Of a stretch of 34,992 nt of DNA, positions 18,704 through 34,992 are shown piece after piece. The position numbers and the translations under genes are program-made. The DNA comes from Fibrobacter sp. (lineage in GTDB: Bacteria; Krumholzibacteriota; Krumholzibacteriia; LZORAL124-64-63), in assembly GCA_020718045.1 (NCBI GenBank), contig DYDD01000004.1, positions 765-35,756 on the forward strand. Reading direction: 5' to 3'. Numbering within the stretch: the stretch's first letter is position 1; every line of letters starts with the position of its first letter. The notes beneath the pieces are model-generated. The model saw only the letters and a list, made by a program, of their open reading frames with translations, made no database searches and was not told the DNA's origin.

Positions 18704-18935
18704 GTTCTGGCCACGGAATTGTCCCTGCCCATGCGGTGTTGCGACTTGGCTCCACACATCCTGCGGTGACAGGGGGCGCTCGTCGGGCACATCCTGTGCC
18801 CGACTCGCTTGGCCTTCCGGCCCTTTCGCCATCCTGGCTCCAGGGCCTGCAGGACACCCCTGTCACCACAGGATGTGTGGAGCCAAGTCGAACGGCAGCG
18901 TGGATATGGGCAGGGACGATTTCGTGGCTTGGACC
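18703..18935. mobile_element. MITE-like non-autonomous element (233 bp) with long inverted repeats and 9-bp target-site duplication
   Basis: 30-bp terminal IRs (18703-18732/18906-18935, 25/30 match), inner 34-bp IR (18742-18775/18857-18890, 33/34), internal 10-bp-stem hairpin 18782-18804, flanking direct repeats GTACGAGTA (18694-18702) and GCACGAGTA (18936-18944). Confidence 0.75.
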
Positions 18936-19018
18936 GCACGAGTAGACCATGGCCAGGATCGATGCTCGGGCCGACTTCGGGCTTGATCAGTGCCTCTGCT
19001 CTTGTACAATCCACGGAC

Positions 19019-20182: not shown

Positions 20183-20370
20183 GGGCGCCGCATGCCGGCG
20201 TGTCTTGTGAGGCACCCCGGCCAGGTCCGTGATCCGGCTAGCCTCTTCCCCGCCCGCACGATCAACGAAACCGGACATAATGTTCCGTCGGGTGCCTGCT
20301 TCGCGGCATTGCTGGATGAGGAATCCCGACGCCCGGCGTTGTGCAGGTTGACCCTGATCAGATAGGCAAC

Positions 20371-21636: not shown

Positions 21637-21678
21637 TTCTGCAATGGATGGAACTAGGGATCCCGGGCGACGGCCGGG

Positions 21679-22239
21679 CTAGTGCCGCGTCCCGGCCAAC
21701 TTCCGCCCTGCCCGCACGACCGCCGTCACCAGCCCCGCGACCAGCACCAACCCCAGCACCGGCACCAGCAGCGCGATCGCCGCCAGGGCGACGGCGCCAC
21801 CCGTCTCGGCGGCGGCGACGAACGGGTTGCCGAAGCCGGCGGTCATGACGGTCGAGAGGGCGCGCGTGCCGACCGACGCGGCCTGGACCAGGCCGGCCAG
21901 GCCGCCGCCGGCGATGATCGCCAGGGGCCAGCGGGCGTAGGGCGGCAGGTCGACGGCCACGGCGGCCATCAGCGCGGCGCCCGCGATCGCGGCGGCCGGT
22001 GTGGCGAGCGTGTCCAGGGCGTGGTCGAGCCAGGGGACGAAGTAGGCGAGGGCCTCGGCCAGGGAGGCGGTGCCGAAGATCACCAGAGCCGTGGTCGAGC
22101 CGAGCCAGCCGAATCCGGAGGCCGGCTCCAGGTGGCCGGTGTGCACGGCGATCGCCGCCAGCAGCAGCGGCACGAAGACGCGCAGGCCGGCCGCGGCGGC
22201 CAGCCCCAGCCCGAGCGTGATCCCGATCGCCGTGTCCAT
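21679..22239 (-). CDS. DUF4126-family membrane protein
   Basis: GLGLAAAAGLR.FVPLL, E.LAY.VPW.DH.LD and R..ST..TAG.GNPFV...E motifs; RBS GAGGAG. Confidence 0.8.
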   Translation of the reverse strand: MDTAIGITLGLGLAAAAGLRVFVPLLLAAIAVHTGHLEPASGFGWLGSTTALVIFGTASLAEALAYFVPWLDHALDTLATPAAAIAGAALMAAVAVDLPPYARWPLAIIAGGGLAGLVQAASVGTRALSTVMTAGFGNPFVAAAETGGAVALAAIALLVPVLGLVLVAGLVTAVVRAGRKLAGTRH

Positions 22240-22256: not shown

Positions 22257-23594
22257 TCAGGGACGGTCGTGCGGCTCCGACGGCTCGCGCGGCTCCTGGG
22301 ATGTCTGAGACGTCTGGGGCGCGAAGAGCCGGTGCAGCGTCGCCAGGTGCTGCTGGCGCTCCTGCTCGCTCTCGGCGCTCTTGAGCGACTCCATCGAGCG
22401 ACCCAGGACCTTCTTGATGAACTGCTGCAGGCTGGCGTCGACCGCCGCGGCCACCTCGTCGGACTGCTTGCGGCGCACGTAGCCGACCTGCTTCTCCTTG
22501 AGGTCCTCGAGGTAGGCGCGGAACTCGGCCACGCTGGGGCGCAGGTCCATCTCGCGGACCCAGGCGCGGAACTCCGCCAGCTCCTCCTCGACGATGCGCT
22601 CGGCCCCGGGCAGCTGCTTGCGGCGCGCGGCGAGGTTGGACTGGACGATCTCGTCGAGGTCGTCCAGACCGAAGACATAGGTCTCGTCCACCCGCGCGAC
22701 GTCGGGATGGACATCGCGCGGGACGGCGATGTCCAGGACGTACAGCGGCCGTCCGCGGCGGCGGCGCATGGCGGCGCGCACCATCTCCGGCAGGATCACG
22801 GGCTCGAGGCTGCCGGTGGTCGAGAGCACGACGTCCACGTCGGCCAGCGCGGCGGGCAGGTCCTCCCAGGGACGCGCGCGCACGAGTTCGCCCTTGCCGC
22901 CGTTGAGGTCGTCCGCCAGGGTCCGCGCGCGCTCGGGGCTGCGGTTCACCACGATCAGGCCGCCGATGCCCTGCTGCAGGAAGTGGCGGGCCGCCAGGGC
23001 GCCGGTCTCGCCGGCGCCGACCAGCAGGGCGCGGTGCCGCGGCAGGTCGGCGAAGAACTTGCGGGCCAGTTCGACGGCGGCGAAGGCGACGCTGACCGCC
23101 CCCTCGCCGATCTTCGTCTCGGTGCGGACGCGCTTGCCGGCGCGGAACGCGCCCTGGAAGGCGCGCATGAGCACCGGGCCGAGCTCGTGGTGCTCCTTGG
23201 CCAGCCGGTAGGCGTCCTTGAGCTGGCCGGAGATCTGGGGCTCGCCCAGCATCATGCTCTCCAGGCCGGCCGACACCCGGTAGAGGCGGCGCACGGCCTC
23301 CCCGTCGGTCAGGCGCACGGCGTGCTCGCCGGTGAACAGCGAGGGGTCGAGCCCGGCGCCGGCCAGGCTGCGGGTCATGCTGTCGAAGGGCGCGAAACCG
23401 GGCAGGGCCTCGACGTAGATCTCGGTGCGGTTGCAGGTGCTGACCGGCACGGCCGAGACGAACCCCGGCTCCCGCGACAGGGCCGCCAGCAGTCCGCCCA
23501 CGCGCTCGGGGTCGATGTGCGCGCGCTCGCGCACCTCGGTCGGCGCGAGCCGGTGGTCGATCCCCCACAGGTGCAGGCCGGCGCGCCCCGCCAT
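22257..23594 (-). CDS. hemA: Glutamyl-tRNA reductase
   Basis: STCNRTE, GLESMMLGEPQI.GQ, GAGETG, NRS and DIAVPRD motifs; TGATG overlap with the upstream gene. Confidence 0.96.
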   Translation of the reverse strand: MAGRAGLHLWGIDHRLAPTEVRERAHIDPERVGGLLAALSREPGFVSAVPVSTCNRTEIYVEALPGFAPFDSMTRSLAGAGLDPSLFTGEHAVRLTDGEAVRRLYRVSAGLESMMLGEPQISGQLKDAYRLAKEHHELGPVLMRAFQGAFRAGKRVRTETKIGEGAVSVAFAAVELARKFFADLPRHRALLVGAGETGALAARHFLQQGIGGLIVVNRSPERARTLADDLNGGKGELVRARPWEDLPAALADVDVVLSTTGSLEPVILPEMVRAAMRRRRGRPLYVLDIAVPRDVHPDVARVDETYVFGLDDLDEIVQSNLAARRKQLPGAERIVEEELAEFRAWVREMDLRPSVAEFRAYLEDLKEKQVGYVRRKQSDEVAAAVDASLQQFIKKVLGRSMESLKSAESEQERQQHLATLHRLFAPQTSQTSQEPREPSEPHDRP

Positions 23595-24457
23595 CACACG
23601 CCCCCGCGCAGGCTGAAGTTGTGGAAGCTGGGGATGAAGTGGTGGATGGCGCCCATCGCCAGGACCACCGCGAGGTAGGTCAGGATCGCCAGCGTGTTCA
23701 TGCGGCGGCCGCGCCAGCCCCACCAGCGGTGGCCGGCCAGGCCCGCCAGGTAGACCAGGAAGATCAGCCAGGAGGTCAGGATCTTCGGGTCGAAGGGGGT
23801 CAGGCTGCGCGCCGTCTCGGGGTCGAGCTTGTCGGCCAGGTCGTAGAGCCACAGGTGACCCAGCGCGAGGGCCCCGAACAGCAGGGGCACGCCCAGCTTG
23901 GCCGCGCCCACGCTCATGCGCTCCAGGACCTCCAGCGGCGGCAGCCGGCGGAAGAGCAGCCCGAACGTCTTGCGGGCGAGCTGGCGCGCCAGCACCAGGT
24001 AGAGGGCCGCGTAGAGGAAGCTGAGGCTCAGCGCGGTGTACGCCAGCAGCACCAGCACGGCGTGGCCGGCGTAGCCGGGGTCCTCCAGCAGTGGGTTGGC
24101 CGCCGGTTCGGCGATGGAGAACGCGCTGGCGATGAACTGCAGCAGGAACGCCACGCCCGTGACCAGGAACCCCGTCTCGCGCACGCGCAGACGGCGTTCG
24201 ACCACGGCGTAGATCAGCAGCAGGGACAGCGCCAGCAGCGACAGGAACTCCAGGGGCGAGGCCATCGGCAGGTGGTGGTGTACCCGCGCGTGGATGACGG
24301 ACGCCGCAAGGTGGGCCACCACGGTCGTCGCGAGCAGCCGCCGCGCCCAGCGGTGGGCGAACTTGCGGTTCTCGTAGAAGACCCACAGGTAGGCCACGAA
24401 GAGCAGCAGGTACAGCAGCGGTAGCAGGACCTCGCCCACCGTCAACGCGAGCCTCAT
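23594..24457 (-). CDS. CcsA/HemX-like cytochrome c assembly family membrane protein
   Basis: About 8 TM helices, HLP, H...L.Y, LPPLE.LE and DPK...W..Y motifs; lacks the full WGxxWxWD signature; ATGA overlap. Confidence 0.8.
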   Translation of the reverse strand: MRLALTVGEVLLPLLYLLLFVAYLWVFYENRKFAHRWARRLLATTVVAHLAASVIHARVHHHLPMASPLEFLSLLALSLLLIYAVVERRLRVRETGFLVTGVAFLLQFIASAFSIAEPAANPLLEDPGYAGHAVLVLLAYTALSLSFLYAALYLVLARQLARKTFGLLFRRLPPLEVLERMSVGAAKLGVPLLFGALALGHLWLYDLADKLDPETARSLTPFDPKILTSWLIFLVYLAGLAGHRWWGWRGRRMNTLAILTYLAVVLAMGAIHHFIPSFHNFSLRGGV

Positions 24458-25935
24458 GCCGCCCCTCCTTCGACGCGGGGACCGGCCGCCGCCAGCCGGT
24501 CGAGCACGGCGGCGGCCATGGTTTCGGATTCCTTGATGCAGGCGTTGACCGACACGCCGCGGTACGAGCTGCCGGACAGGTGCAGGCCCGGCAGGGCGGC
24601 GAGCCGCGTCTCCATTCGGCGCAGGCGGTCGAGGTGGCCGGGTTCGTACTGGGCGATGGCCCGCGGGTGGCGGAACACCCGGGTCATCACGGGGTTGTCG
24701 CGCAGGCCCATCAGCCCGCGCAGCTCGGCGACGGCGCGGTCCCGCAGGGCGTCGTCGCCGTCGTCCAGGACGTGCGGGTCGCCCGGACCGCCGGCCATGC
24801 AGTGCAGCAGGACCCGGCCGTCCGGCGCGCGGCCGGGGAAGATGCTGCTGGTCCACAGGGCGCCCAGCAGGCGGCTGTGTTCGCAGGTGGGGATCAGCGC
24901 GCCGAAGCCGTCGAGGTCGTGCGCCACGTCGCCGCGCGCGTAGCCCAGGGCGATCACGGCCATCGGCACGTAGGGGATGCCGTCCAGCAGGCCGGACAGC
25001 GCGGGGTCGAGCTCGCGCAGGTGGGCGGCGGCCGCGTGGGCCGGCGCGGCGTGGACGACGGCGTCGGCGTCGAAGGATGCGCCCTCGTCGACCCGCACGC
25101 GCCAGACCGCGCCGTCGCGGCTGATCGACGCGACCGCGCGGCCCGTGACGAGGGAGGCGCGCGGATCGTCGCGCAGGGCCCGCGCCAGGGCGGCGGGCAG
25201 CGCCGCCATGCCGTCACGGAAGGAATGCAGGGTGCCGGAGGGGCCGGCATCGGCGGCCCGCTTGCGCTGCTTCGAGATCGCCGCGAGCGCGCGGAACAGG
25301 CTGCCGTGGTCGCGCTCCAGCTCGACCATCCGCGGGAACGCGGCCGCGAGGCTGAGCCGGCGGGCGTCGCCGCCGAAGATGCCCTTGACCATCGGGTCGA
25401 GCATCAGCTCCGCGAAGTCGCTCCCCAGGCGCCGGCGCCCGAACTCCCAGACCGACTCGTCGGTGGCGGGATCGTCGGCGGCGCGGCCCAGGTCCCGCCG
25501 GCGCGGCACCAGGAGTTCGCCCAGCACGCGCAGCTTGGCGCGGGGGGTGAACAGATCGGTCTTGAGGAAGGCGAGCGGCGAGGCGGGGATCTCGCGCAGG
25601 CGGCCGCCGACCACCAGGAAGCGGCGCCGGGCCGCGTCGCTGCTGCGCACCAGCTCGTCGTGCAGGCCCAGGCGGTCGACCAGGCGCAGCGTCGCCGGCT
25701 CGTTGTCCAGGAAGCCGTTGGGGCCCCACTCCAGGCGCCAGCCGTCGTGGACGCTGGTGCGCAGGTTGCCGCCGACCTGCGGCGCGGCCTCCAGGACGTC
25801 GACCCGCAGGTCGAGCCCGCGCGCCGTCGCCCCCTCCAACAGCCGCAGGGCCGTGGCCAGGCCCGACACCCCGCCGCCGACCACGACCGCGCGCCGCGCG
25901 TTCCCTTGCAGCTTCGTCGTGACCTGCTCAGTCAA
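24454..25935 (-). CDS. hemY: FAD-dependent protoporphyrinogen/coproporphyrinogen oxidase (HemY type)
   Basis: VVGGGVSGL, E....GG, E.GPNGF, GIFGGD...LS...FP, GFG.L and AI.QY..GH motifs; TTG start overlapping the hemH stop. Confidence 0.93.
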   Translation of the reverse strand: MTEQVTTKLQGNARRAVVVGGGVSGLATALRLLEGATARGLDLRVDVLEAAPQVGGNLRTSVHDGWRLEWGPNGFLDNEPATLRLVDRLGLHDELVRSSDAARRRFLVVGGRLREIPASPLAFLKTDLFTPRAKLRVLGELLVPRRRDLGRAADDPATDESVWEFGRRRLGSDFAELMLDPMVKGIFGGDARRLSLAAAFPRMVELERDHGSLFRALAAISKQRKRAADAGPSGTLHSFRDGMAALPAALARALRDDPRASLVTGRAVASISRDGAVWRVRVDEGASFDADAVVHAAPAHAAAAHLRELDPALSGLLDGIPYVPMAVIALGYARGDVAHDLDGFGALIPTCEHSRLLGALWTSSIFPGRAPDGRVLLHCMAGGPGDPHVLDDGDDALRDRAVAELRGLMGLRDNPVMTRVFRHPRAIAQYEPGHLDRLRRMETRLAALPGLHLSGSSYRGVSVNACIKESETMAAAVLDRLAAAGPRVEGGAA

Positions 25936-27016
25936 GGGTCGCCTCCGCGCGGAAGGGGTCGCCGGCCAGGCGCGCCGCCAGCGAGGCGAGCCAGGTCTCG
26001 TCGAGGTTGAGCGCGGCGCCGCGGTCGAATTCGCGCACGCCCAGCTCCTCGGCTTCGCGACGCAACTCGCGGTCGAGTTCGTGCAGCGTCTCGATGTGCT
26101 CGCAGGTGAAGCTGACCGGCTGCACCAGCAGCCGGCGGCAACCGGCTCCGGCCAGGCGCCGCGTCTCGGCCGTGATCTCGGGGCCGAGCCACTTGATGGG
26201 GCCGACCTTGCTCTGGAAGGCCAGCAAGGGCGCGGGCCCGCCCGGCAGTCGGGCCAGCCAGGCGGCGTGGCCGTCCGCGGCGAGGGCCGTGCGCACGCGC
26301 TCGTGGACGGCGCTGACCGTGGCGCGGGTCTGGCTGAGGTATGGGTCCCCGCGCTTGATGAAGCTCTCGGGCAGGGAGTGCGCCACGTAGATCAGGGCGC
26401 ACTGCTGCGGGTCGGCGCCCTCGTCGGCCCAGCGTCGCAGGCCGCGGCCCGCGTTGGCGGCCAGCGTCGCGACGAAGCCGTCCAGCAGATGCCAGGCCTC
26501 GATCACGTGGACCGCGGTGCCGGGGGCGAGGCGGTCCAGCGACCGCTGCACGAAGGACAGCGTGCTGCCGTTGGTGGCGTCGGAGTACTGGGGGTACATC
26601 GGCAGGACCAGGAACTGCTCGGCGCCGCGCTCGCGCAGCCCGCGCACGGCCTCGTCGGGAAAGGGCCGCCAGTAGCGCATGGCCGGCAGCGCGATCGTCG
26701 GCCTGCCGGCTTCGCCCAGCAGCGCGGCCAGCCGGTCCCCCTGGGCGCGGGTGGTCGGGACCTGCGGCGAGCCGCCGCCGAGCCCCATCTCGAGGTACCG
26801 CCGGCGCACGGCTGGCGCGCGCCGCCAGGCGATCAGGCGGCCCAGGAGCGGGGAGAGCAGGCGCGGGATGGGGATGATCTGCGGGTCCTGGAACAGGTTG
26901 CGCAGGAAGGGCTGCACCGCGTCGGGCCCGTCGGGCCCGCCCATGCCGCACAGGATCAGGCCCGTGGTCCGGGCCGGGTCGAGGTGGTCCTGCCGGAAGC
27001 GACGCGGTGCGGTCAT
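25928..27016 (-). CDS. hemH: Ferrochelatase
   Basis: MGGPD...V.PFL.NLF.D, GGSP, MRYW.PF, PMYPQYS, AHSLP, GDPY, FQSKVGP..WL.P and EHIETL.ELD motifs. Confidence 0.95.
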   Translation of the reverse strand: MTAPRRFRQDHLDPARTTGLILCGMGGPDGPDAVQPFLRNLFQDPQIIPIPRLLSPLLGRLIAWRRAPAVRRRYLEMGLGGGSPQVPTTRAQGDRLAALLGEAGRPTIALPAMRYWRPFPDEAVRGLRERGAEQFLVLPMYPQYSDATNGSTLSFVQRSLDRLAPGTAVHVIEAWHLLDGFVATLAANAGRGLRRWADEGADPQQCALIYVAHSLPESFIKRGDPYLSQTRATVSAVHERVRTALAADGHAAWLARLPGGPAPLLAFQSKVGPIKWLGPEITAETRRLAGAGCRRLLVQPVSFTCEHIETLHELDRELRREAEELGVREFDRGAALNLDETWLASLAARLAGDPFRAEATLD

Positions 27017-27023
27017 CCTCGCC

Positions 27024-28400
27024 TCAGATGGTCTTGGAGAACAGGGGTTTCCCGCTCGTGCGGTCCAGGTAGGCGTCGAACTCCATGCACAGGTTGCGCA
27101 CGAAGAAGCGTCCCAGGTCGGTCACGCGCACGCGGTCGGGCAGGAACTCCACGAAGCCCTCGTCCTGGTAGGGGAGCAGGCGGGCCAGCCCGTCGGCCAG
27201 CAGCTCGTCCGCCGGCGCGCCGAAACCGGGCACGGTCAGCGCGTAGGGCAGCTCCAGGTTGCACATCAGGTTCAAGATCGCCAGGCGCCGCAGGCGGTCG
27301 TCGTCGCTGAGGCGGTGCCCCTTGACGACCGGCAGGTGGCCGGCGTCGACCGCGTTCTGGTAGCCGTCGAGCTCGGCGTCGTTCTGGACGAAGCGGTCGC
27401 ACACGTCGCCGATGCCGCTCATGCCGAAGGCCAGCATGTGGGGCGCCGGGCGCGTCGTGTAGCCCATGAAGTTGCGGTGCAGGCGCCGCTCCCGCAGCGC
27501 GACGGCGAGCTCGTCGTCGCGCCGGGCGAAGTGGTCGATGCCGATCCAGTCGTAGCCGGCCTCGGCGAACAGGTCGATCGCCAGGCGGAACAGCTCGAAC
27601 TTCTCGAAGCCCGACGGCATGTTGTCGGTGTTGATGAGCTTCTGCCGCGGGCGCACCCAGGGCACGTGGGCGTAGCTGAAGCAGGCCACGCGGTCGGGTC
27701 CCTGTTCGATGATGTCGCTCAGGGTGCGAGCGAAGGAGTCGCGCGTCTGCTCCGGCAGGCCGTAGACGAGGTCGAGGTTGACGCCCTCGTAGCCGGCCTC
27801 GCGGCAGGCGTGGTACAGCTCCAGCGTGCGGTCGCGCTTCTGCAGGCGGCCGATGGCCTTCTGCACCGCGGGCTCGAAGTCCTGCACGCCCAGGCTGATG
27901 CGGTTGAAGCCCTGCGCCCGCAGGAAGCGCGCCTGCTCGGGCGTGCCGATGCGCGGGTCGACCTCGATCGAGACCTCGCCCCGCGGGTCGACGGCGAAGG
28001 CGGCGCGCAGCAGCCCCAGCGCGCGCTCGACCTGCGGGTCCTTGAGGAAGTTGGGCGTGCCGCCGCCCCAGTGCAGTTGCACGACGCGCCGGCCCGGACC
28101 CAGCACGTCCACCACCGCGGCCAGCTCGCGCTCGACGCGGTCGAGGTAGGCGTCGACGGCGCCCTTCTCGGTGGAGACGACGGCATTGCAGCCGCAGTAG
28201 TGGCAGTGCTTGGCGCAGAAGGGCAAGTGCAGGTAGACCGACAGCTCGTCGCCGGGCCGCGCCGCCAGCTCGCGCAGCGCCGCGCGGAAGTCGTCCTCGC
28301 CGAAGCCGCTCGTCCAGGCCGGCACCGTCGGGTAGCTTGTGTACCGGGGGCCCGGCTTGTCGTGCTTCTCGAGAAGGTTGCGCGGCACGTCCAGGGCCAT
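27024..28400 (-). CDS. hemN: Oxygen-independent coproporphyrinogen III dehydrogenase (radical SAM)
   Basis: GPRYTSYPT, YLHLPFC...C.YCGC, HWGGGTP, IGIDHFA, LHRNFMGY motifs and FSKTI C-terminus. Confidence 0.96.
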   Translation of the reverse strand: MALDVPRNLLEKHDKPGPRYTSYPTVPAWTSGFGEDDFRAALRELAARPGDELSVYLHLPFCAKHCHYCGCNAVVSTEKGAVDAYLDRVERELAAVVDVLGPGRRVVQLHWGGGTPNFLKDPQVERALGLLRAAFAVDPRGEVSIEVDPRIGTPEQARFLRAQGFNRISLGVQDFEPAVQKAIGRLQKRDRTLELYHACREAGYEGVNLDLVYGLPEQTRDSFARTLSDIIEQGPDRVACFSYAHVPWVRPRQKLINTDNMPSGFEKFELFRLAIDLFAEAGYDWIGIDHFARRDDELAVALRERRLHRNFMGYTTRPAPHMLAFGMSGIGDVCDRFVQNDAELDGYQNAVDAGHLPVVKGHRLSDDDRLRRLAILNLMCNLELPYALTVPGFGAPADELLADGLARLLPYQDEGFVEFLPDRVRVTDLGRFFVRNLCMEFDAYLDRTSGKPLFSKTI

Positions 28401-28401
28401 C

Positions 28402-29439
28402 TCAGTCCCCCTCGCGGTACGCCTGCACGGTCGCGACCAGGGTCTCGACCGCGTCCAGGGGCGCCTCCGGCAGGATGCCGTGCCCGAGGTTGAAGACGTG
28501 GCCGGCGGCGTCGCGGCCGGCGCGGCAGATCTCCAGCGCGCGGCGGCGGATCTCCTCGTGGCTGCCGAACAGGCACAGCGGGTCCAGGTTGCCCTGCACG
28601 GCCCGGCCGGGATAGGCGCGTGCGGCGACCGCCAGGTCGAGCGTCCAGTCCACGCCGAACGCCTCGGCGTCGAGCGTGCGCACGTGGTCGAGGTAGGGGG
28701 CGCTGCCCTTCAGGAAGTAGACGCGGGGCACGCCCGCGCCCTTCAGGCCGGTCAGGATCCGCCGCAGCCCGGGCATGATGATGCGCTCGTAGTCCTGCGG
28801 GTGCAGGATGCCGCCCCAGGTGTCGAAGATCTGGACCGCATCGACGCCCGCCTCGACCTGCATCAGCAGGTAGTCGGTGATCTGGTCGGCGAGCTTGTCC
28901 AGCAGGCGCGACAGCAGCGCCGGGTCGGAGTAGAGCATCGCCTTGAGGTGCCGGTAGTCCTTGGAACCGCCGCCTTCGATCATGTAGGCCGCCAGCGTGA
29001 ACGGCGCGCCGGCGAACCCGATCAGGGGCGTGCGGTCCCCGAGCTCGCGCTTGATCATCCGCACGGCCTCGGCCACGTAGCCGGTGTGCTCGCGCGAGTC
29101 GACGACGCGCAGGGCGTCCACGTCGGCCGCCGCGCGCACGGTGTGGTGCATGCGCGGGCCGTGGTCGTCGAAGGAGAAGGGGGCGCCCATGGGCTCCAGC
29201 GGCACCAGGATGTCGCTGAACAGGATGGCCGCGTCGAAGCCGAAGCGGCGGATCGGCTGCAGGGTGACCTCGCAGGCCAGCTCCGGCGTCTTGCAGAGGC
29301 CGATGAACGAGGTCTTCTCGCGCACGGCGCGGTACTCGGGGAGGTAGCGGCCCGCCTGGCGCATGATCCAGATCGGCGTGCGCTCGTGCGCCTCGCGACG
29401 CAGGGCGGACAGGTAGGGGAGATGCTGCAGCGTGTCCAT
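28402..29439 (-). CDS. hemE: Uroporphyrinogen decarboxylase
   Basis: PIWIMRQAGRYLPEYR, DAAILFSDIL, LIGFAGAPFTLA.Y, QGNLDP and FNLGHGI motifs. Confidence 0.97.
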   Translation of the reverse strand: MDTLQHLPYLSALRREAHERTPIWIMRQAGRYLPEYRAVREKTSFIGLCKTPELACEVTLQPIRRFGFDAAILFSDILVPLEPMGAPFSFDDHGPRMHHTVRAAADVDALRVVDSREHTGYVAEAVRMIKRELGDRTPLIGFAGAPFTLAAYMIEGGGSKDYRHLKAMLYSDPALLSRLLDKLADQITDYLLMQVEAGVDAVQIFDTWGGILHPQDYERIIMPGLRRILTGLKGAGVPRVYFLKGSAPYLDHVRTLDAEAFGVDWTLDLAVAARAYPGRAVQGNLDPLCLFGSHEEIRRRALEICRAGRDAAGHVFNLGHGILPEAPLDAVETLVATVQAYREGD

Positions 29440-29536
29440 CGTGTCTCCGGGATGGGGCCGCCGCTGCGGGGCGGCGCCGGGGCGCGGTCGACCGCCGCGC
29501 GCCGGGAGGAAATCTAGTCGCGAAACCGGCGAATTG

Positions 29537-29553
29537 TGTCACGGAGACGTCAT
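29537..29553. promoter_or_regulatory. Candidate operator upstream of hemE, shared with the NHL/omcS promoter
   Basis: TGTCACGGAGACGTCAT, 15/17 identical to 32004-32020; GTCAY half-sites with 11-bp period. Confidence 0.55.
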
Positions 29554-29610
29554 GTCGGCGGATTTTCGGGGACGGCGGAGCCGGGTCAGCGGCCGCGGGA
29601 GTCCCGGCTT

Positions 29611-29647
29611 GAGAAACGGGCCCCGCACCGTCCTGGTGCGGGGCCCG
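29611..29647 (-). terminator. Rho-independent terminator downstream of the omcS-like gene
   Basis: Perfect 13-bp stem CGGGCCCCGCACC/GGTGCGGGGCCCG (29617-29647) followed on the - strand by TTTCTC. Confidence 0.75.
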
Positions 29648-29691
29648 CCGGATTGTCGCGATCACCCGGCTGGGGCCGGGTAGGCGTCGGA

Positions 29692-30813
29692 TCAGGGCGC
29701 CGTGTAGGGAGCGTCGCCGAAGTCCTTCACGTGGCACTTGTTGCACAGCGACCGCTGGTTGGTCACCAGGGTGTAGCCGTAGTCCTTGTTCGCCACGTCG
29801 TCGGCCGAGGCGCCGGTGTCGGTGGCCAGCGGGTGCGAGCTGATCAGGTGCGTGGACGTGAAGTCCCAGCGGCCGGCGTCCGCGAAGGGCGACGCGTGCG
29901 AACGGTGGCAGGTCAGGCACATGACCTGGTCTCCGGCCACGGGGCCCTGGGTGTAGTTCAGGGGGTCGATGGCTTCGAGGTCGACGTTGACGGCCTCGAA
30001 GGGCACCAGACCGCGGTACGAGGTGGCGGGGTCGCCGCCGGTGGTCTGGTCGGTGCTGATGTAGGCGTTGTAGGTCGCCACGACCAGGCTGCTCATGTCC
30101 TCGCCCGTCGGGTGCACGAAGTCGGTGGTGTTGCCGGCATGCAGGTCGGTGTGGCAGTTGGCGCACCACTCGCTCATGCCCGACTTGTACACGGTGTGCG
30201 AGAGGTCGGTCTCGGGCACGCCCGAGGGGCTGTTGCCCAGGGTGCGGCGGCTGTTGCCCAGGGCGATCGGGGCGGGGCTGTCGAAGTTGTAGCGGGCGCC
30301 GCCGTAGATCGGGCCGGCGCTCTCGTCGCCGTAGAGCAGACGGTAGTTCTGGTTGCCGTGCGGGTCGTGGCAGCTCGTGCAGGTCAGGTACTGGCTGTCG
30401 AAGTCGCCGCCGGGGGCCGCGGCCAGGACGGGATCCCGGACGATGCCGTAGGCCGGCGAGATGACGTTGTGGCCGTGGGTGTAGCCCTGACGGGAGCCGG
30501 CCCGGGGCGTGGTCCACGAGAAGGTCTTGGTGATCCAGTAGAAGTCGCCGCCGGCGCCCCAGCCGAAGCCGCCGGCGAGCTGGCCGTACGCGGCGTGGCA
30601 GCGCAGGCAGGTGTCGCTGGCGTTGCCGTTGTTCAGCAGGTAGGCGTTGCCCGTGGGGTGATTGACGTCCACGAGGGCGCCGTTCTGGCTGTTGTGCATG
30701 GTGTGGCAGCCGGCGCAGTAGGCCACGCCGCCGTCGTGGAACGCCAAAGCGGCGCCGCTGCTCAGGGCGAGAGCCAGGACGATGGTTGCGGAGATCAACA
30801 GTTTGTGTTTCAC
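29692..30813 (-). CDS. OmcS-like secreted hexaheme c-type cytochrome (nanowire family)
   Basis: Signal peptide ALA|FHDGGVAYCAGCHTMHNS; 6 CxxCH; blocks GGDFYWITKTFSW, GHNV, APGG..LTCTSCHDPHG, GMSEWCANCHTD, VMCLTCHRSHAS and QRSLCNKCHVKD match my recollection of G. sulfurreducens OmcS; GTG start with RBS GGAGG. Confidence 0.9.
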   Translation of the reverse strand: MKHKLLISATIVLALALSSGAALAFHDGGVAYCAGCHTMHNSQNGALVDVNHPTGNAYLLNNGNASDTCLRCHAAYGQLAGGFGWGAGGDFYWITKTFSWTTPRAGSRQGYTHGHNVISPAYGIVRDPVLAAAPGGDFDSQYLTCTSCHDPHGNQNYRLLYGDESAGPIYGGARYNFDSPAPIALGNSRRTLGNSPSGVPETDLSHTVYKSGMSEWCANCHTDLHAGNTTDFVHPTGEDMSSLVVATYNAYISTDQTTGGDPATSYRGLVPFEAVNVDLEAIDPLNYTQGPVAGDQVMCLTCHRSHASPFADAGRWDFTSTHLISSHPLATDTGASADDVANKDYGYTLVTNQRSLCNKCHVKDFGDAPYTAP

Positions 30814-30990
30814 AGAATCGCCTCCGAGTTGTGCCGGCGGGCGAGGCCGCCGGTTGGGGTTGAGCTGGCGACCGGGTCGCCGCGACCGTGCTTCGCGCCG
30901 GCCGCCACTTCATCCGACGAGGACCAGGACCACTGCCGATACCGGAACATGCTGACAATCCGTGCGGCCCCGCGCGGGCGGAGCCTCCCT

Positions 30991-31914
30991 CTACTCTCCT
31001 GCTTCCGTGCTGAAGATCCCGAAAGCCTGGACGCGCCCTTCGTAGCCTTGGGCCACCAGGATGCGACCGGGCGTCGCGGCGATGGCCAGGGGGTGGTAGA
31101 GCTGCCCCGGCGCGCCGCCGAACGATCCGAATTCCGACGTGAAGTTGAAGTCTCGGTCGTAGACCAAGACCGTGTGCCGCATGCGGTCCAGGACCAACAC
31201 CTCGTCGGCGGGTCCGAACGCGACGCCGACGGGGAAGGCGAGGCGCCCCGGGCTGGTGCCGGGGCGGCCGAAGGAGCCGGCGTCCGCGCCTTCGGCCGTG
31301 AGGACCAGCACGACGTGCAGCTCGCCGCCGGGAACGAAGAGACGGCCGTCGGGCGCTTCGGCGGGCCGGCCGAGTTCCGACTGTTCAGTGACGCCTTCGA
31401 GGGCGCGGTGCCAGAGCACGCGGCCGGTCGCGGCGTCGTGCTTGGTCAGCGTGCCGGCGCGCTTGTCGAGGGACATATAATGGCCGTCGGCGGTGACGAT
31501 CAGGTGGTCGGGCTGCCATTGCGGCGCGGGCCGTTCGACATCGAAGCGCACCGGTTCGCCGTGCAGGTCGAGCTTGCGCAGCGTGCGCTCCCCGGCGGCG
31601 TCGCGGTCGGCGAAGACGAAACCGCCGTCACGGTCCAGGCAGCCGTCGGCGGGGGTCGAGAGGGAGGCGGCGATACTGCTGGTGAACAGGGTGATCCCGT
31701 GTCCATCGACCACATGGAAGCACACGCCCCGCTCGTCGGTGACGCACACGTCGCCGGTCGCCGGGTCGACGCTCAGAGCGATGGGGCGGACATGGCCGGA
31801 TGTTCCCACGCCCAACTGCAGCATGCCCTCGTAGCGATAAGCGATCGTTCCTTTCGCCGCGAGCGGGCAAAGGAACAGCGTCAGGGCGGTGCAGATTGCA
31901 AGGCATCTTGTCAT
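30991..31914 (-). CDS. Secreted NHL-repeat beta-propeller protein
   Basis: Signal peptide; FG..G..PG.L.FP.GVA and FGSFGGAPGQLYHP.AIA NHL repeats; ATG 31914 preferred over the upstream GTG. Confidence 0.85.
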   Translation of the reverse strand: MTRCLAICTALTLFLCPLAAKGTIAYRYEGMLQLGVGTSGHVRPIALSVDPATGDVCVTDERGVCFHVVDGHGITLFTSSIAASLSTPADGCLDRDGGFVFADRDAAGERTLRKLDLHGEPVRFDVERPAPQWQPDHLIVTADGHYMSLDKRAGTLTKHDAATGRVLWHRALEGVTEQSELGRPAEAPDGRLFVPGGELHVVLVLTAEGADAGSFGRPGTSPGRLAFPVGVAFGPADEVLVLDRMRHTVLVYDRDFNFTSEFGSFGGAPGQLYHPLAIAATPGRILVAQGYEGRVQAFGIFSTEAGE

Positions 31915-32003
31915 GGGGCTGTCACCGAATCTGTTGGTGGATTCACAGCGAGGGCGAGTCGGAGTCGCAAGCAACGCTGTTGTTGTCACCCATTGTGAAC
32001 GCT

Positions 32004-32020
32004 TGTCACGGAGATATCAT
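32004..32020. promoter_or_regulatory. Candidate operator overlapping the -10/start region of the NHL/omcS promoter
   Basis: TGTCACGGAGATATCAT, 15/17 identical to 29537-29553. Confidence 0.55.
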
Positions 32021-32045
32021 AGCGGTTCTGTTACTAATCCGTCAA
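32016..32045 (-). promoter_or_regulatory. Sigma70-type promoter for the NHL-omcS-like unit
   Basis: - strand TTGACG-N18-TATGAT within an AT-rich intergenic island. Confidence 0.7.
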
Positions 32046-32132
32046 AGGCAAAGTGAAGTGAACGATGTCATATTGCGAACAATCTTCATTTTTGACAATA
32101 AATGCCAAAATCGACATTTTGGAGTTGAGATG

Positions 32133-32159
32133 AAAAACCGGCCCCCTCGCGGGGGCCGG
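32133..32159 (-). terminator. Rho-independent terminator after the giant cytochrome
   Basis: - strand CCGGCCCCC-GCGA-GGGGGCCGG-TTTTT (GNRA loop). Confidence 0.88.
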
Positions 32160-32203
32160 CCTGTTAAAATAGTATCCGGATTGTCGGTCTCTGGTCCCGA
32201 CGA

Positions 32204-34992
32204 TCAGCGCTTCTCGCGGATCTTCTCGGTGTGACATCCGATGCACAGCTTCCCGCCGGCATCCTCCCGGAGGACCTTTTCGAACTCAGAGCCGTGAGGG
32301 TCGTGGCAACTGGAGCAGACGATCTCGCCGCCATGGACCGGATCCGTCGTGCCGGCGCCCAGAGGGTGGTCGGTGTGCTCCTGCCAGGTGTGGCAGCGCA
32401 GACAGGGGTCGGGACCGGCGGGTGCCGACCCGGGAGCGCCTACGGCGGCATGGGGGTTGTGGCACATCGTGCACTGACGGCCCTCGGGATCGGGGTGCCG
32501 GTGGCTCGACGACTTCATGCGCTCGGCCTGCTCGGCGTGGCAGCGTCCGCAGACGGCGACCTGGCTGCGGGGCAGCAGGTTGGACACCGGCGAGGCGTGG
32601 GGAGTGTGGCACTCCAGGCAGGCCCGCTCGCCCGCAAGCGGGGCGTGGAGGGTCGCGCCCTTGAGTTCCTCGGCCAGACCGGGATGGCAGGCCAGGCACA
32701 GGCGCTTTTCGGCTCCCGTCTGCACCTTGCCGCCGGCGTCGTGGCAAGCCTTGCAGTCGCGCTTGGCGTACGGCTGGTGGACGTGCCCGTGCGTCAAACC
32801 GGCGTGCGTGCTGGCGTGCGGATCGTGGCAGGCCATGCAGTCGGCCGTCCCGAGATCGAAGTTCAAGTGCGGTTTGGCCAGCGCGGCGCCCGCGAGGTCG
32901 TGGCAGGTCGCGCAGAGGGCGGGCACCGCCTTGGACAGGAGATCCGCTTGGTCCGTGCCGTGGGCGTCGTGGCAGGTGGCGCACTTCCCGTCGGCGAACG
33001 GTTGGTGCCGCCTCGGCAGCGACTGGGCCGTTTGCAGGTCCTGGTGACAGGTCCAACAGAGAGCCGTGCGCGCCGTGCGCAGCAGGGCGGGCTGGTCCGA
33101 GCCGTGGGGATCGTGGCATGCGGCGCAGTCGCCGTCGCGGGCGGGCCGGTGGGCCAGATCCGCCCGGGGGAACAGCGTGCCGCCGCCGTGGCAGACCGCG
33201 CAGGCGGCGCCGACGCCGCCGGCTTTCAACAAGTGCTCGCCGCGGGCGGCGTGGGCGTCGTGGCAGGCGCTGCACTCGCCGTCGTCGAAGGGGGCGTGGG
33301 GGTGTTTGCGCGTCGCCGTCAGCCCGTCGTGGCAGCCGGCGCACAGCGCCTTCTGGTCGGCGATGGGCGCGGGGCCGTCGTGGCAGGTCGCGCAGTCACG
33401 GTCGTCGAAGGGCGGGTGCGAATTCGGCCGGATCAGCGCCGCCTGCGTCGAGTGGTGCGGCGCGTGGCAGCCGGTGCAGTCCAGCCCGAGGAGGTCGCGC
33501 CCGAGGTGGGCGCCCTTCAGGGCGTCGTCGTTCTCGTCGTGGCAGCGGAAGCAGAGCTCGGTCGCCGGCGCCGCCAGTAGCGAGGGCTGCGCGCCGCCGT
33601 GCGGGAGGTGGCAGGTCGTGCAGTCGTCCTGGATCGGGGGATGGACCGACTTGGCCGCCGCGACGTCGACGATGTCGTTGTGGCAGATCGTGCAGAGCAG
33701 GGGCTCCGGTGCGGAGAGCAGGTCGCCGCGAGCCGCGCGGTGGGCGTCGTGACAGGCCGTGCAGTTGCCGGCGGCGACCGGCGCGTGCGCGTGGCCGCCG
33801 GCGCCCGGGCCGGTGTCGTGGCAGACCAGGCAGATCTCCGCAGCCGGGCGGCGCAGCATGGCGACCTCGTCGCCGCCGTGGGGGCGGTGACAGTCGCCGC
33901 AGAGGCCGTCCGCGACGGGCGGGTGCAGGCTGCCCCCCTCGGGGCGGACGGCCTGGTCGGCGTGGCAGGCCAGGCAAGTCGCCGCGGGCGTCGTCTTCAA
34001 CAGCGATGGCTGATCGGCGCGGTGCGGCACGTGGCAGGCCAGGCAGTCGCCGCGCGCCGCCACATCGTGGGGATGGGAGGTGACGAGCTCGACCTTGACC
34101 TTGAGGTGGCAACCGAGGCAGAGGGTCCCGGCCTTGGCGGTCAGCAGGCCCGGTTCGGTCGAGCTGTGCGGGTCGTGGCAGGCGGAACAGTCCCTCTTGA
34201 CGAAGGGCGTGTGGTCCGAAACGGCGGCGGCCGCACCGTCGTCGATCTCGCTGTGGCAACCGAGGCACAGTTCTCCGGGCTGTGCGGTCAGCAGCGCGGC
34301 CCGTTCGCCGCCGTGGGCGTCGTGGCAGGCGGCGCAGTCGCCCCCGGCGACCGGTGCGTGGACCACGTTGCGGCGGAACGGATCGTCCCCGTGGCACCCG
34401 AAACAGAGTCGGCGCAGTTCGGTCCTGATCATCCCGGAGTGCGCGCTGCCATGGGCGGCGTGGCAGTCCAGGCAGGAGCCGTCGGCGACGGGGGCGTGGG
34501 GCGTCGCGGCGCCGGCGCCGGGCTGGTCGTGGCAGGACAGGCACAGGTCGTTACCCTGGGCGACCAGCGCGGTGCGGCCGTCGGCGTCTTTCACGTGGCA
34601 GGCGGCGCAGTCGCGGTCCCGGACGGGCGCGTGCTGCACGGCCAGCAGGAGCTTCGACGCGTCGGCGCTGTGGGGGTCGTGGCAGGACGTGCAGCCGACG
34701 GTCGCGTCCGCGTCGCCGTGCGCCTGCGCGAGCTTGCGGACATCGCGGTGGCAGGACAGGCAGAGGGCGTCGACGGCGACGTCCAGCAGATGCGGCTCGG
34801 CGCTGCCGTGGGGCCGGTGGCAGGCGGCGCAGCCCTGCTTCTTCAGCGGGGCGTGGACGAACGCGCGCGAGAAAGCGGCGCTGTCGTGGCAGGTCAGGCA
34901 GGACGCGTCGCCCTTCGCGGGCAGCAGGTCCGGCTGTCCGCTGCCGTGGGGGTCGTGGCAGGCGACGCAGCCGCCGTCCCGCACCGGCGGGT
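32204..34992 (-). CDS. Giant multiheme cytochrome c with doubled-CXXCH repeats (5'-truncated, at least 39 hemes)
   Basis: 39 CxxCH motifs counted in 926 aa; repeating H.P....CxxCH.PH.S....LL......LCxxCH unit; frame open to the window edge. Confidence 0.95.
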   Translation of the reverse strand, partial: PPVRDGGCVACHDPHGSGQPDLLPAKGDASCLTCHDSAAFSRAFVHAPLKKQGCAACHRPHGSAEPHLLDVAVDALCLSCHRDVRKLAQAHGDADATVGCTSCHDPHSADASKLLLAVQHAPVRDRDCAACHVKDADGRTALVAQGNDLCLSCHDQPGAGAATPHAPVADGSCLDCHAAHGSAHSGMIRTELRRLCFGCHGDDPFRRNVVHAPVAGGDCAACHDAHGGERAALLTAQPGELCLGCHSEIDDGAAAAVSDHTPFVKRDCSACHDPHSSTEPGLLTAKAGTLCLGCHLKVKVELVTSHPHDVAARGDCLACHVPHRADQPSLLKTTPAATCLACHADQAVRPEGGSLHPPVADGLCGDCHRPHGGDEVAMLRRPAAEICLVCHDTGPGAGGHAHAPVAAGNCTACHDAHRAARGDLLSAPEPLLCTICHNDIVDVAAAKSVHPPIQDDCTTCHLPHGGAQPSLLAAPATELCFRCHDENDDALKGAHLGRDLLGLDCTGCHAPHHSTQAALIRPNSHPPFDDRDCATCHDGPAPIADQKALCAGCHDGLTATRKHPHAPFDDGECSACHDAHAARGEHLLKAGGVGAACAVCHGGGTLFPRADLAHRPARDGDCAACHDPHGSDQPALLRTARTALCWTCHQDLQTAQSLPRRHQPFADGKCATCHDAHGTDQADLLSKAVPALCATCHDLAGAALAKPHLNFDLGTADCMACHDPHASTHAGLTHGHVHQPYAKRDCKACHDAGGKVQTGAEKRLCLACHPGLAEELKGATLHAPLAGERACLECHTPHASPVSNLLPRSQVAVCGRCHAEQAERMKSSSHRHPDPEGRQCTMCHNPHAAVGAPGSAPAGPDPCLRCHTWQEHTDHPLGAGTTDPVHGGEIVCSSCHDPHGSEFEKVLREDAGGKLCIGCHTEKIREKR

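What the first reader, a model, noticed from the sequence alone, without database searches (positions are those of the whole stretch)
29692..30813. OmcS-type nanowire cytochrome retaining the polymerisation histidine, in a very GC-rich host
Seen: cleavable signal peptide, six CxxCH motifs and mature N-terminus FHDGGVAYCAGCHTMH. Knowledge: G. sulfurreducens OmcS starts FHSGGVAECEGCHTMH, and its His16 ligates a heme of the neighbouring subunit in the filament. Here His16 is in the identical position, and several downstream blocks (GMSEWCANCHTD, QR.LCNKCH.KD) match recalled OmcS sequence. Six non-motif His in conserved blocks (FH, TMH, GHN, DPH, VHP, RSH) could supply bis-His ligation. Inference: this organism makes conductive cytochrome filaments. 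Its very high GC and gene context do not look like Geobacter, so it may be an unstudied electroactive lineage.
Basis: partly seen in the sequence, partly recalled or inferred. Interest (0 to 1): 0.92.

Follow-up and report, generated by a model that had tools for sequence, protein, structure and literature searches.

The report
OmcS-family cytochrome in a Krumholzibacteriia genome
This gene encodes a six-heme protein clearly related to OmcS, the subunit of the electrically conductive filaments of Geobacter, in an uncultured groundwater-type bacterium of another phylum, so it extends a known kind of system and is not a new one.

Summary
Window 29692-30813 (-) encodes a 373-aa protein with a Sec-type signal peptide, six CxxCH motifs and the quoted N-terminus.

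- **Family:** in the PDB it matches only G. sulfurreducens OmcS, over its full length (E 4e-44; family profile E 8.5e-146). Its AF2 model matches 6EF8 (TM 0.72).
- **Histidines:** six non-motif His are near-invariant across 78 relatives. The one aligned to OmcS His16 is kept in 71 of 78.
- **Host:** not Geobacter. It is a 70% GC MAG whose GTDB family contains four genomes labelled Krumholzibacteriota or Krumholzibacteriia. 48 of 91 species in that family carry a homologue.
- **Gene module:** the gene ends a conserved module of a large beta-barrel, a CsgG-like protein, a PPIase, a 41-heme cytochrome, an NHL propeller and the OmcS-like gene. In part this resembles the Geobacter osc assembly cluster. 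Here the module sits inside a heme-biosynthesis cluster.
- **Subclade:** the protein belongs to a shorter, structurally uncharacterised branch of the family, separate from the Geobacteraceae rows.

Filament formation is plausible (about 0.55) but untested. OmcS genes in Krumholzibacteria (2021) and the wide spread of OmcS homologues and their machinery are already published. Verdict: new member of a known kind, moderate interest.

The parts
29692..30813 (-). OmcS-family hexaheme c-type cytochrome gene (373 aa precursor, about 349 aa mature)
   Evidence: ORF and translation. PDB match to OmcS only, E 4.2e-44. Family profile E 8.5e-146. Fold TM 0.72 to 6ef8_A.
30742..30813 (-). Signal peptide (24 codons, ends AALA), cleavage inferred before F25
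   Evidence: Sequence. F25 aligns to residue 1 of the mature OmcS chain. The motif A-x-A|FH is shared by 14 of the 16 aligned rows; the other two are L002, cut at the contig end, and L003, which has an N-terminal extension.
30694..30696 (-). Codon CAC for His40 (mature His16), aligned to position 16 of OmcS chain 6ef8_A
   Evidence: Conserved in 71 of 78 relatives. Lost only in 7 long-clade rows.
30821..30825 (-). Shine-Dalgarno-like GGAGG, 7 nt before the GTG start
   Evidence: Read from the sequence.
29604..29651 (-). G+C-rich hairpin followed by GUUUCUC, about 40 nt after the stop codon; possible intrinsic terminator between the cytochrome gene and hemE
   Evidence: The 92-nt stretch 29600-29691 holding this hairpin folds at -56.4 kcal/mol, z -4.3, 0 of 200 shuffles as good. 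The consensus scan did not flag it because the T-run is short.
30991..31989 (-). NHL-repeat beta-propeller protein gene directly upstream
   Evidence: Pfam NHL E 3.4e-7. Homologues lie next to OmcS homologues in 41 of 80 loci, and upstream on the same strand within 2.5 kb in 31 of 70 loci with enough flank.
32204..34992 (-). Giant multiheme cytochrome (runs off the window; the whole gene is G000:C3:32968-36069, 1033 aa, 41 CxxCH, with a signal peptide)
   Evidence: Homologues lie beside OmcS homologues in 18 of the 82 stored loci searched (all except L001).
28402..29439 (-). hemE (uroporphyrinogen decarboxylase), next gene downstream
   Evidence: Pfam URO-D E 2e-128.
27024..28400 (-). hemN-type oxygen-independent coproporphyrinogen oxidase
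   Evidence: Radical_SAM plus HemN_C.
25928..27016 (-). hemH (ferrochelatase)
   Evidence: Pfam Ferrochelatase E 1.8e-84.
24454..25935 (-). Protoporphyrinogen-oxidase-like flavoprotein (HemY type)
   Evidence: Amino_oxidase E 3e-57. The name is inferred from context.
22257..24856 (-). Cytochrome c assembly protein (CcsA/HemX-like) and hemA (glutamyl-tRNA reductase); start codons not resolved
   Evidence: Cytochrom_C_asm E 2e-20 in ORF 23594-24856. GlutR_N/Shikimate_DH/GlutR_dimer in residues 275-689 of ORF 22257-24386.

Best explanation
The gene encodes a secreted hexaheme c-type cytochrome of the OmcS family. It belongs to a shorter subfamily (about 350 aa mature, against 407 in OmcS) found mainly in rows labelled Krumholzibacteriota or Acidobacteriota, with single rows labelled Eisenbacteria, Ignavibacteria, Fibrobacterota, Gemmatimonadota and Alphaproteobacteria and 11 rows with no phylum label. 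Shown: homology, the same order of six heme sites, six conserved distal histidines, an OmcS-like predicted fold, and a conserved gene module. Inferred: after Sec export and heme attachment the protein is folded with the help of the PpiD-like prolyl isomerase. It then passes the outer membrane through the module's large beta-barrel and CsgG-like protein. Outside the cell it polymerises head to tail as OmcS does, with the N-terminal arm of one subunit giving His16 to the fifth heme of its neighbour. That would make a continuous, protein-insulated heme chain. The neighbouring 41-heme cytochrome would feed electrons to, or take them from, the base of the filament. The direction of electron flow (mineral reduction or electron uptake) is not decided. 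The flanking heme-biosynthesis genes would supply the large heme demand.
For: Sequence: OmcS (6ef8/6nef) is the only PDB hit. E is 4.2e-44 for query residues 25-364 against chain residues 1-407, and 8.5e-146 in one stretch covering chain 1-407 for the 89-row family profile. Fold: the AF2 model (pLDDT 82, pTM 0.80) matches 6ef8_A at E 5e-21, TMq 0.72, and the next hit has E 4.7. Ligands: six CxxCH plus exactly six near-invariant non-motif His. This fits the 12 His axial ligands of OmcS, one of which comes from the neighbouring subunit (PMC6584659, passages). His16 is kept in 71 of 78 rows. All 7 rows that lack it are in the long clade, and no short-clade row lacks it. The model's least confident part is residues 21-60, the N-terminal arm, as expected if that arm packs against a neighbour; this is weak evidence. 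Module within the family: 33 of the 34 genomes with a close homologue (best E <= 1e-90) also have the 736-aa barrel. Of the other 57 genomes, 1 has it. In 29 of the 34 barrel-bearing genomes the barrel lies on the same contig, with a gap of 7.5-7.9 kb to the cytochrome gene. The barrel model is all-beta (pLDDT 81) and resembles large outer-membrane barrels, with the best TM (0.33) to MtrB. Parallels to the Geobacter osc cluster: PMC13194489 (passages) summarises it as a prolyl-isomerase folding factor OscH, secretion proteins OscE/F/G and OscD. PMC13712944 (passages) reports large beta-barrels and propeller lipoproteins in OmcE and OmcS regions. The best genome-wide hits of the window's PPIase in Geobacter sp. 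AOG1 and Geomonas silvestris lie 6.5-7.7 kb from their OmcS homologues. NHL genes adjoin OmcS homologues in 41 of 80 loci across phyla. The genome has 21 ORFs with 3 or more CxxCH.
Against: No experiment or structure exists for any member of the short subclade; the PDB holds only G. sulfurreducens OmcS. Identity to OmcS is only 29% in the structural alignment. Identity to the Geobacteraceae loci is 30-35% by tblastn best segment and 35-42% in alignment A2. The protein is about 58 residues shorter than OmcS, including a 17-residue gap after the second heme motif. Interface residues were not examined. Homology alone does not prove polymerisation, because Geobacter itself has OmcS-like paralogues not known to form wires. 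The barrel had no sequence match in 0 of 5 Geobacter-type or Anaeromyxobacteraceae genomes. The CsgG-like call rests only on a language-model similarity of 0.95, with no Pfam or NCBIfam hit. The PPIase matches are weak (21-25% identity, E 1e-5 to 3e-10) and lie near an OmcS homologue in only 2 of 5 genomes. That His16 is the inter-subunit ligand is recalled from Wang et al. 2019, which is not held.
Confidence: 0.55

Rival explanations
1. It is a true OmcS-family cytochrome but does not polymerise. It works as a monomeric or membrane-associated extracellular or periplasmic electron carrier, docked on the barrel, propeller and 41-heme complex, as in a porin-cytochrome conduit.
For: Family membership is all that is shown. 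Geobacter has OmcS-like paralogues OmcT, OmcJ and OscC (PMC6584659 and PMC13194489, passages) for which I recall no filament report. The protein is shorter than OmcS and sits in a different subclade. The barrel's best structural match by TM score is MtrB, the sheath of a porin-cytochrome complex. NHL propellers beside extracellular cytochromes were proposed to stabilise outer-membrane cytochrome complexes in Desulfovibrio ferrophilus (PMC5815863, passages).
Against: The His16 position and the F1-H2 N-terminus are strictly kept in the short clade, while some long-clade relatives have lost His16. That suggests selection on this residue. There are exactly six conserved distal His, as in OmcS. The module contains a PPIase, and a prolyl-isomerase factor (OscH) is the proposed OmcS folding factor in Geobacter (PMC13194489, passages).
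Confidence: 0.3
2. Whatever its assembly state, its physiological role is electron uptake, for example Fe(II) or mineral oxidation under micro-oxic or nitrate-reducing conditions, and not Fe(III)/Mn(IV) reduction.
For: A Krumholzibacteria MAG with OmcS also carried Cyc2 and several oxygen reductases, and its authors left the direction open (PMC7914226, passages). Multiheme wires are reversible in principle (general knowledge). Nothing in the window fixes a direction.
Against: No iron-oxidation marker was searched for or found in this genome here. In Geobacter, OmcS is linked to Fe(III) oxide reduction (PMC12307469, passages).
Confidence: 0.25
3. It is a chance ORF or pseudogene in G+C-rich DNA whose CxxCH motifs arose by chance.
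For: High-GC DNA carries many long spurious ORFs, for example the 820-aa ORF on the opposite strand.
Against: E 4e-44 to OmcS over the full length. Orthologues of 91-95% identity occur in all 6 other species of the genus. GC3 is 0.93. There is an RBS. The frame is intact.
Confidence: 0.01

Closest known systems
OmcS of Geobacter sulfurreducens (PDB 6EF8, 6NEF)
   Same: Six CxxCH motifs in the same order. A mature N-terminus F-H-x-G-G-V-A-x-C-x-G-C-H-T-M-H with His at position 16. Six conserved distal His. Shared blocks GMSEWCANCHTD and QRxLCNKCHxKD. An OmcS-like predicted fold (TM 0.72).
   Different: 29% identity in the structural alignment. About 58 residues shorter, with gaps after heme motif 2 and in the C-terminal half, plus 9 extra C-terminal residues. 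A different phylum. It sits in a separate, well-supported subclade (28 rows, SH-aLRT 99) from all Geobacteraceae rows. Filament formation is unknown.
OmcS-like paralogues of Geobacter (OmcT, OmcJ, OscC)
   Same: Six-heme members of the same family (named in PMC6584659 and PMC13194489, passages). This genome also has paralogues: three OmcS-type genes.
   Different: I could not compare them directly, because no G. sulfurreducens sequence was among the loci fetched. Some Geobacteraceae relatives (L061, L062, L077) lack His16, whereas this protein keeps it.
osc (omcS companion) cluster of G. sulfurreducens (Shen et al. 2025, seen only through PMC13194489 and PMC13712944)
   Same: [quoted passage not shown]
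   Different: The barrel has no detectable sequence similarity in 5 Geobacter-type or Anaeromyxobacteraceae genomes. The module includes a 41-heme cytochrome and a possible CsgG-like protein. It is embedded in heme-biosynthesis genes, a linkage seen only in this genus among the loci examined. One-to-one orthology with OscD to OscH was not tested.
OmcE, OmcZ and the archaeal cytochrome filaments
   Same: They are an analogous solution: polymerised multiheme cytochromes, with inter-subunit His ligation in OmcE (PMC12307469, PMC13712944, passages).
   Different: There is no sequence or fold match. Neither phmmer, the family profile nor Foldseek returned any of them.
OmcS reported in a Krumholzibacteria MAG (Dalcin Martins et al. 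2021, PMC7914226)
   Same: The same phylum and the same kind of gene, called there by the FeGenie marker model. Its authors stated it was the first report for the group.
   Different: That report is a marker-gene call without sequence anatomy or gene context. Whether it is the same subfamily was not checked, and its supplements were not seen.

Membership tests
OmcS family (hexaheme nanowire cytochrome) | Six CxxCH heme-binding motifs in the OmcS order | tested here: met
   Six motifs, each aligned to an OmcS motif. 68 of 80 related loci also have six; the other 12 have 2 to 7, and some of those ORFs are truncated or frameshifted.
OmcS family (hexaheme nanowire cytochrome) | Significant full-length sequence similarity to OmcS, beyond the motifs | tested here: met
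   E 4.2e-44 for query 25-364 against chain 1-407. Profile E 8.5e-146 in a single stretch over chain 1-407.
OmcS family (hexaheme nanowire cytochrome) | OmcS fold | tested here: met
   Foldseek gives 6ef8_A at E 5e-21, TMq 0.72, TMt 0.66, and no other hit below E 4. The model was made without hemes.
OmcS family (hexaheme nanowire cytochrome) | Bis-His ligation of all six hemes (six distal His besides the motif His) | tested here: inconclusive
   Six non-motif His are conserved in 71-78 of 78 relatives, and each aligns to a His of OmcS. Which heme each one ligates could not be measured, because no coordinates are available.
OmcS family (hexaheme nanowire cytochrome) | Signal peptide cleaved to leave F1-H2 ... 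H16 at the mature N-terminus | tested here: met
   F25 aligns to residue 1 and H40 to residue 16 of chain 6ef8_A. Cleavage itself is inferred.
OmcS family (hexaheme nanowire cytochrome) | His16 ligates heme 5 of the neighbouring subunit; head-to-tail polymerisation | not testable with these tools
   This needs a multimer model with all hemes, or a structure.
OmcS family (hexaheme nanowire cytochrome) | Micrometre-long conductive extracellular filament | not testable with these tools
   Experimental only.
osc-type OmcS companion cluster | Prolyl-isomerase chaperone encoded nearby (OscH-like) | tested here: met
   Rotamase_2 E 7e-13 in L084:1063-2415. Its best hits in Geobacter sp. AOG1 and Geomonas silvestris lie 6.5-7.7 kb from their OmcS homologues. 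In 3 other genomes the best hit was not shown to lie nearby.
osc-type OmcS companion cluster | Beta-propeller protein encoded nearby (OscD-like) | tested here: met
   An NHL-repeat protein lies directly upstream. Homologues adjoin OmcS homologues in 41 of 80 loci, including Geobacter sp. AOG1 and two Geomonas. Orthology to OscD itself was not tested.
osc-type OmcS companion cluster | Channel-like outer-membrane components (OscE/F/G-like) | tested here: inconclusive
   The 736-aa protein is modelled as a large all-beta barrel and co-occurs with the cytochrome gene in 33 of 34 genomes. It has no sequence match in 5 Geobacter-type or Anaeromyxobacteraceae genomes. The nearest Atlas clusters are about 720-aa Thermodesulfobacteriota proteins (score 0.99, lead only). 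The CsgG-like call is a lead only.
OmcE / OmcZ / archaeal cytochrome filament families | Sequence or fold similarity to those subunits | tested here: not met
   None appears.

The most novel reading that the evidence does not exclude
The short-form OmcS subfamily makes cytochrome nanowires in groundwater Krumholzibacteriia. It would do so with its own conserved export and assembly module (a large barrel with an inserted domain, a CsgG-like protein and a PpiD-like isomerase) and a 41-heme feeder cytochrome. That would be the first OmcS-type filament outside Geobacter. It would bring the FCB-group phyla and Acidobacteriota into long-range extracellular electron transfer, through secretion parts that are not recognisably the Geobacter ones.
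Probability: 0.45. Interest if true: 0.65.

Novelty: new member of a known kind. Interest (0 to 1): 0.4.

Why it matters
If the protein polymerises, OmcS-type wires are not peculiar to Geobacter. They would then be a tool of abundant uncultured groundwater and sediment bacteria, with consequences for iron, manganese and carbon cycling. The family is common in this lineage: 48 of 91 species carry a homologue, and 34 carry the close type. The constant 7.5-7.9 kb module offers a compact, testable candidate for a minimal nanowire assembly system. The shorter subunit would show which parts of OmcS can be dispensed with. As it stands, the finding confirms and details something already suggested in print.

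Tried and rejected
**Polymerisation.** Complex prediction with two copies of residues 25-373 (alignment A2) plus four hemes returned 'no answer' (score 0.00, controls not run). I draw nothing from it either way.

**Papers.**
- Wang et al. 2019 and Shen et al. 2025 are not held.
- The His16 assignment and the content of the Shen abstract are therefore recalled or second-hand.
- Searches for 'His16'/'His332' and for 'histidine 16' found no usable passage.
Those of PMC7914226 could show whether its OmcS is of this subfamily.

**Barrel versus Geobacter.** There was no match in 5 genomes. I do not read this as absence, because beta-barrels diverge fast.

**Promoters.** The sigma-70 scan found none before the cytochrome gene. 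It found one 27-56 nt before the NHL start, at 32045-32016. That is consensus only.

**Transcription.**
- An aquifer RNA library (X2) holds contigs identical to the stretch in 28 of 30 bins, including 29974-30382 inside the gene.
- These are assembled contigs at depth 2-10 spread over all genes, with no silent control, and DNA carry-over cannot be excluded.
- I therefore do not count this as proof of expression. Bins without cover mean nothing.

**Host label.** One genus-mate carries the NCBI label 'Gemmatimonas sp.' (L006). I reject it in favour of Krumholzibacteriota. Four members of the same GTDB family bear that label: L004=G075, L040=G053, L083=G097 and L023=G086, matched by identical coordinates.

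**Anaeromyxobacter.** I first suspected Anaeromyxobacter because of the GC content. This was rejected by the same evidence.

**First submission.** I corrected the field and sent the same report again.
Full report
**1. Observation**

The minus-strand ORF at window 29692-30813 exists as described and gives a 373-aa protein, P0001.
- Its codon-position GC (0.61/0.53/0.93) is that of a real gene in this 70% GC genome. The 820-aa ORF on the opposite strand is its mirror image.
- A GGAGG motif lies 7 nt before the GTG start.
- The protein begins with a basic n-region, a hydrophobic core and AALA, followed by FHDGGVAYCAGCHTMH.

**2. What it is**

phmmer against every PDB chain returns one sequence only, OmcS of Geobacter sulfurreducens (6EF8/6NEF).
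- E is 4.2e-44. Query residues 25-364 align to chain residues 1-407, so the similarity runs the whole length and is not confined to heme motifs.
- F25 aligns to residue 1 of the mature chain and H40 to residue 16.
- Pfam and NCBIfam offer only generic multiheme models.
- A profile of 89 family members hits OmcS at E 8.5e-146 in a single stretch.
- An AlphaFold2 model (pLDDT 82, pTM 0.80; residues 21-60 are the least confident) matches 6ef8_A at E 5e-21 and TM 0.72. Nothing else scores below E 4.

**3. The histidines**

I extracted the homologous ORFs from 80 loci of species-representative genomes. I dropped L011 (frameshifted) and L042 (too short) and aligned the remaining 78 with P0001.
- Six non-motif His are near-invariant: H26 76/78, H40 71/78, H115 78/78, H152 77/78, H234 78/78 and H306 78/78.
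- Other His are conserved in 0-48 of 78.
- H152 and H306 were part of the search patterns, so those two counts are biased upward.
- Six motif His plus six others equals the 12 His axial ligands reported for OmcS, of which one, on heme 5, comes from the neighbouring subunit (PMC6584659, passages read).
- That this one is His16 is recalled from Wang et al. 2019, which is not held.
- The seven rows without H40 all belong to the long, Geobacter-containing clade (L061, L062, L065, L066, L073, L075, L077). No short-clade row lacks it. The residue is therefore not a trivial family constant.

**4. Host and distribution**

The window is G000:C3:765-35756 of a 3.24-Mb, 431-contig genome that is 92% complete.
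- All 6 other species of the genus have a 91-95% identical orthologue.
- In the GTDB family, 48 of 91 genomes have a hit at E <= 1e-20, and 34 have a close one at E <= 1e-90.
- Four family members can be tied by identical hit coordinates to records titled Candidatus Krumholzibacteriia or Krumholzibacteriota (L004, L040, L083, L023).
- One genus-mate is titled 'Gemmatimonas sp.' and another only 'bacterium'. I take the host to be Krumholzibacteriota.
- The family as a whole is broad. Among the 78 rows of the tree, the labels include Thermodesulfobacteriota 23, Nitrospirota 14, Acidobacteriota 12, Krumholzibacteriota 5 and Myxococcota 3. Single rows are labelled Ignavibacteriota, Fibrobacterota, Eisenbacteria, Schekmanbacteria and others.
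- The tree splits into a 28-row clade (SH-aLRT 99) holding the query, with median length 353 aa, and a 51-row clade holding all Geobacteraceae, with median length 410 aa.
- The genome has two further OmcS-type genes, each with a seventh CxxCH.

**5. Gene context**

All the following genes are on the minus strand, listed from upstream to downstream:
- hemD, hemB, hemL
- a divergently oriented 7-heme cytochrome, on the plus strand
- a 736-aa protein
- a roughly 358-aa protein
- a PpiC-type prolyl isomerase
- a 1033-aa cytochrome with 41 CxxCH motifs
- an NHL-repeat propeller
- the OmcS-type gene
- a strong hairpin that may terminate transcription
- hemE, hemN, hemH, a HemY-like oxidase, a CcsA-like protein and hemA

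The 736-aa protein:
- It ends in an aromatic residue and models as an all-beta protein with an inserted domain (pLDDT 81).
- It resembles large outer-membrane barrels: TonB-dependent receptors, ushers and MtrB, with TM 0.20-0.33 among the 47 rows listed.
- Its nearest Atlas clusters are proteins of about 720 aa, commonest in Thermodesulfobacteriota (0.99, lead only).

The roughly 358-aa protein resembles CsgG-family proteins, but only by language-model features (0.95).

Conservation of the module within the family:
- The barrel occurs in 34 of 91 genomes.
- 33 of the 34 genomes with a close OmcS-type gene have it. The exception, G075, is 66% complete.
- Only 1 of the other 57 genomes has it. 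That genome, G029, has fragmentary hits of 64-70% identity.
- In 29 of the 34 barrel-bearing genomes the two genes share a contig, separated by 7.5-7.9 kb.

Conservation across phyla:
- An NHL homologue lies beside the OmcS homologue in 41 of 80 loci. It lies upstream on the same strand within 2.5 kb in 31 of 70 loci with enough flank.
- PPIase homologues occur in 11 of the stored loci searched and giant-cytochrome homologues in 18.
- The heme-gene linkage was seen only in the genus-mate L011.

**6. Comparison with what is known**

- PMC13194489 (passages) summarises Shen et al. 2025. In that summary, omcS lies in an osc operon proposed to encode folding (OscH), secretion (OscE/F/G) and morphology (OscD) factors.
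- PMC13712944 (passages) notes large beta-barrels and propeller lipoproteins in most OmcE and OmcS regions.
- The module here has the same kinds of parts. The window's PPIase finds its best match 6.5-7.7 kb from the OmcS homologue in Geobacter sp. AOG1 and in Geomonas silvestris.
- The barrel, however, shows no sequence match in five Geobacter-type or Anaeromyxobacteraceae genomes.
- OmcS genes in a Krumholzibacteria MAG were reported in 2021 (PMC7914226). OmcS homologues across bacteria are stated in PMC12307469.

**7. Verdict**

- Family membership is secure (about 0.95).
- Polymerisation into a wire is a reasonable inference (about 0.55) and was not tested.
- The finding is a new, well-documented member of a known kind, from a shorter subfamily that has no structure.
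- The conserved module and the heme-gene setting are the most useful new details.

Noticed in passing
window 32204-34992 (-), continuing to G000:C3:36069: A 1033-aa secreted cytochrome with 41 CxxCH motifs, about one heme per 25 residues. It lies two genes upstream of the OmcS-type gene, and homologues lie beside OmcS homologues in 18 other loci.
   Followed up: partly
window 22257-29439 and L084:7207-10474: Heme-biosynthesis genes flank the cytochrome module on both sides: hemD, hemB and hemL upstream; hemE, hemN, hemH, a HemY-like gene, a CcsA-like gene and hemA downstream. Among the fetched loci this linkage was seen only in the genus-mate L011.
   Followed up: partly
L084:6419-7324 (+): A 301-aa cytochrome with 7 CxxCH motifs and a signal peptide. 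It is transcribed divergently, between the barrel gene and hemL.
   Followed up: no
L002:3-971 (+) and L003:1480-2610 (-): Two paralogues in the same genome, each with a seventh CxxCH. One has it in an insert after heme 3 (61% identity, 5' end cut by the contig end). The other has it in an N-terminal extension before the FH-equivalent position (45% identity).
   Followed up: partly
L084:2387-3460 (-): A 358-aa protein between the barrel and the PPIase. It has no Pfam or NCBIfam hit, but its nearest Atlas clusters are CsgG-family (score 0.95; 65% of the members of the top cluster carry PF03783). This hints at a curli-like secretion component.
   Followed up: partly
window 18809-21636: GC drops to 0.64 in 20001-22000, against 0.70-0.75 elsewhere. 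The two ORFs here have no convincing family: a weak Peptidase_MA_2 hit at E 5e-4, and none.
   Followed up: no
L011 (genus-mate): The OmcS-type match in this contig has 4 stops or frameshifts, while an intact 94% copy lies on another contig of the same genome (G009:C29). A partial barrel copy with 3 TGA also lies there. This looks like duplicated, error-bearing assembly of one locus.
   Followed up: no
L006 / G007 (genus-mate): This record is titled 'Gemmatimonas sp.' although it falls in the same GTDB genus as the window. Four family members are titled Krumholzibacteri*, so the title is probably a legacy label.
   Followed up: partly
window 24000-34992: Contigs identical to this stretch occur in an aquifer RNA library (X2, 28 of 30 bins). 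Contigs 95-99% alike occur in a cave metagenome (X3, 30 of 30 bins).
   Followed up: partly
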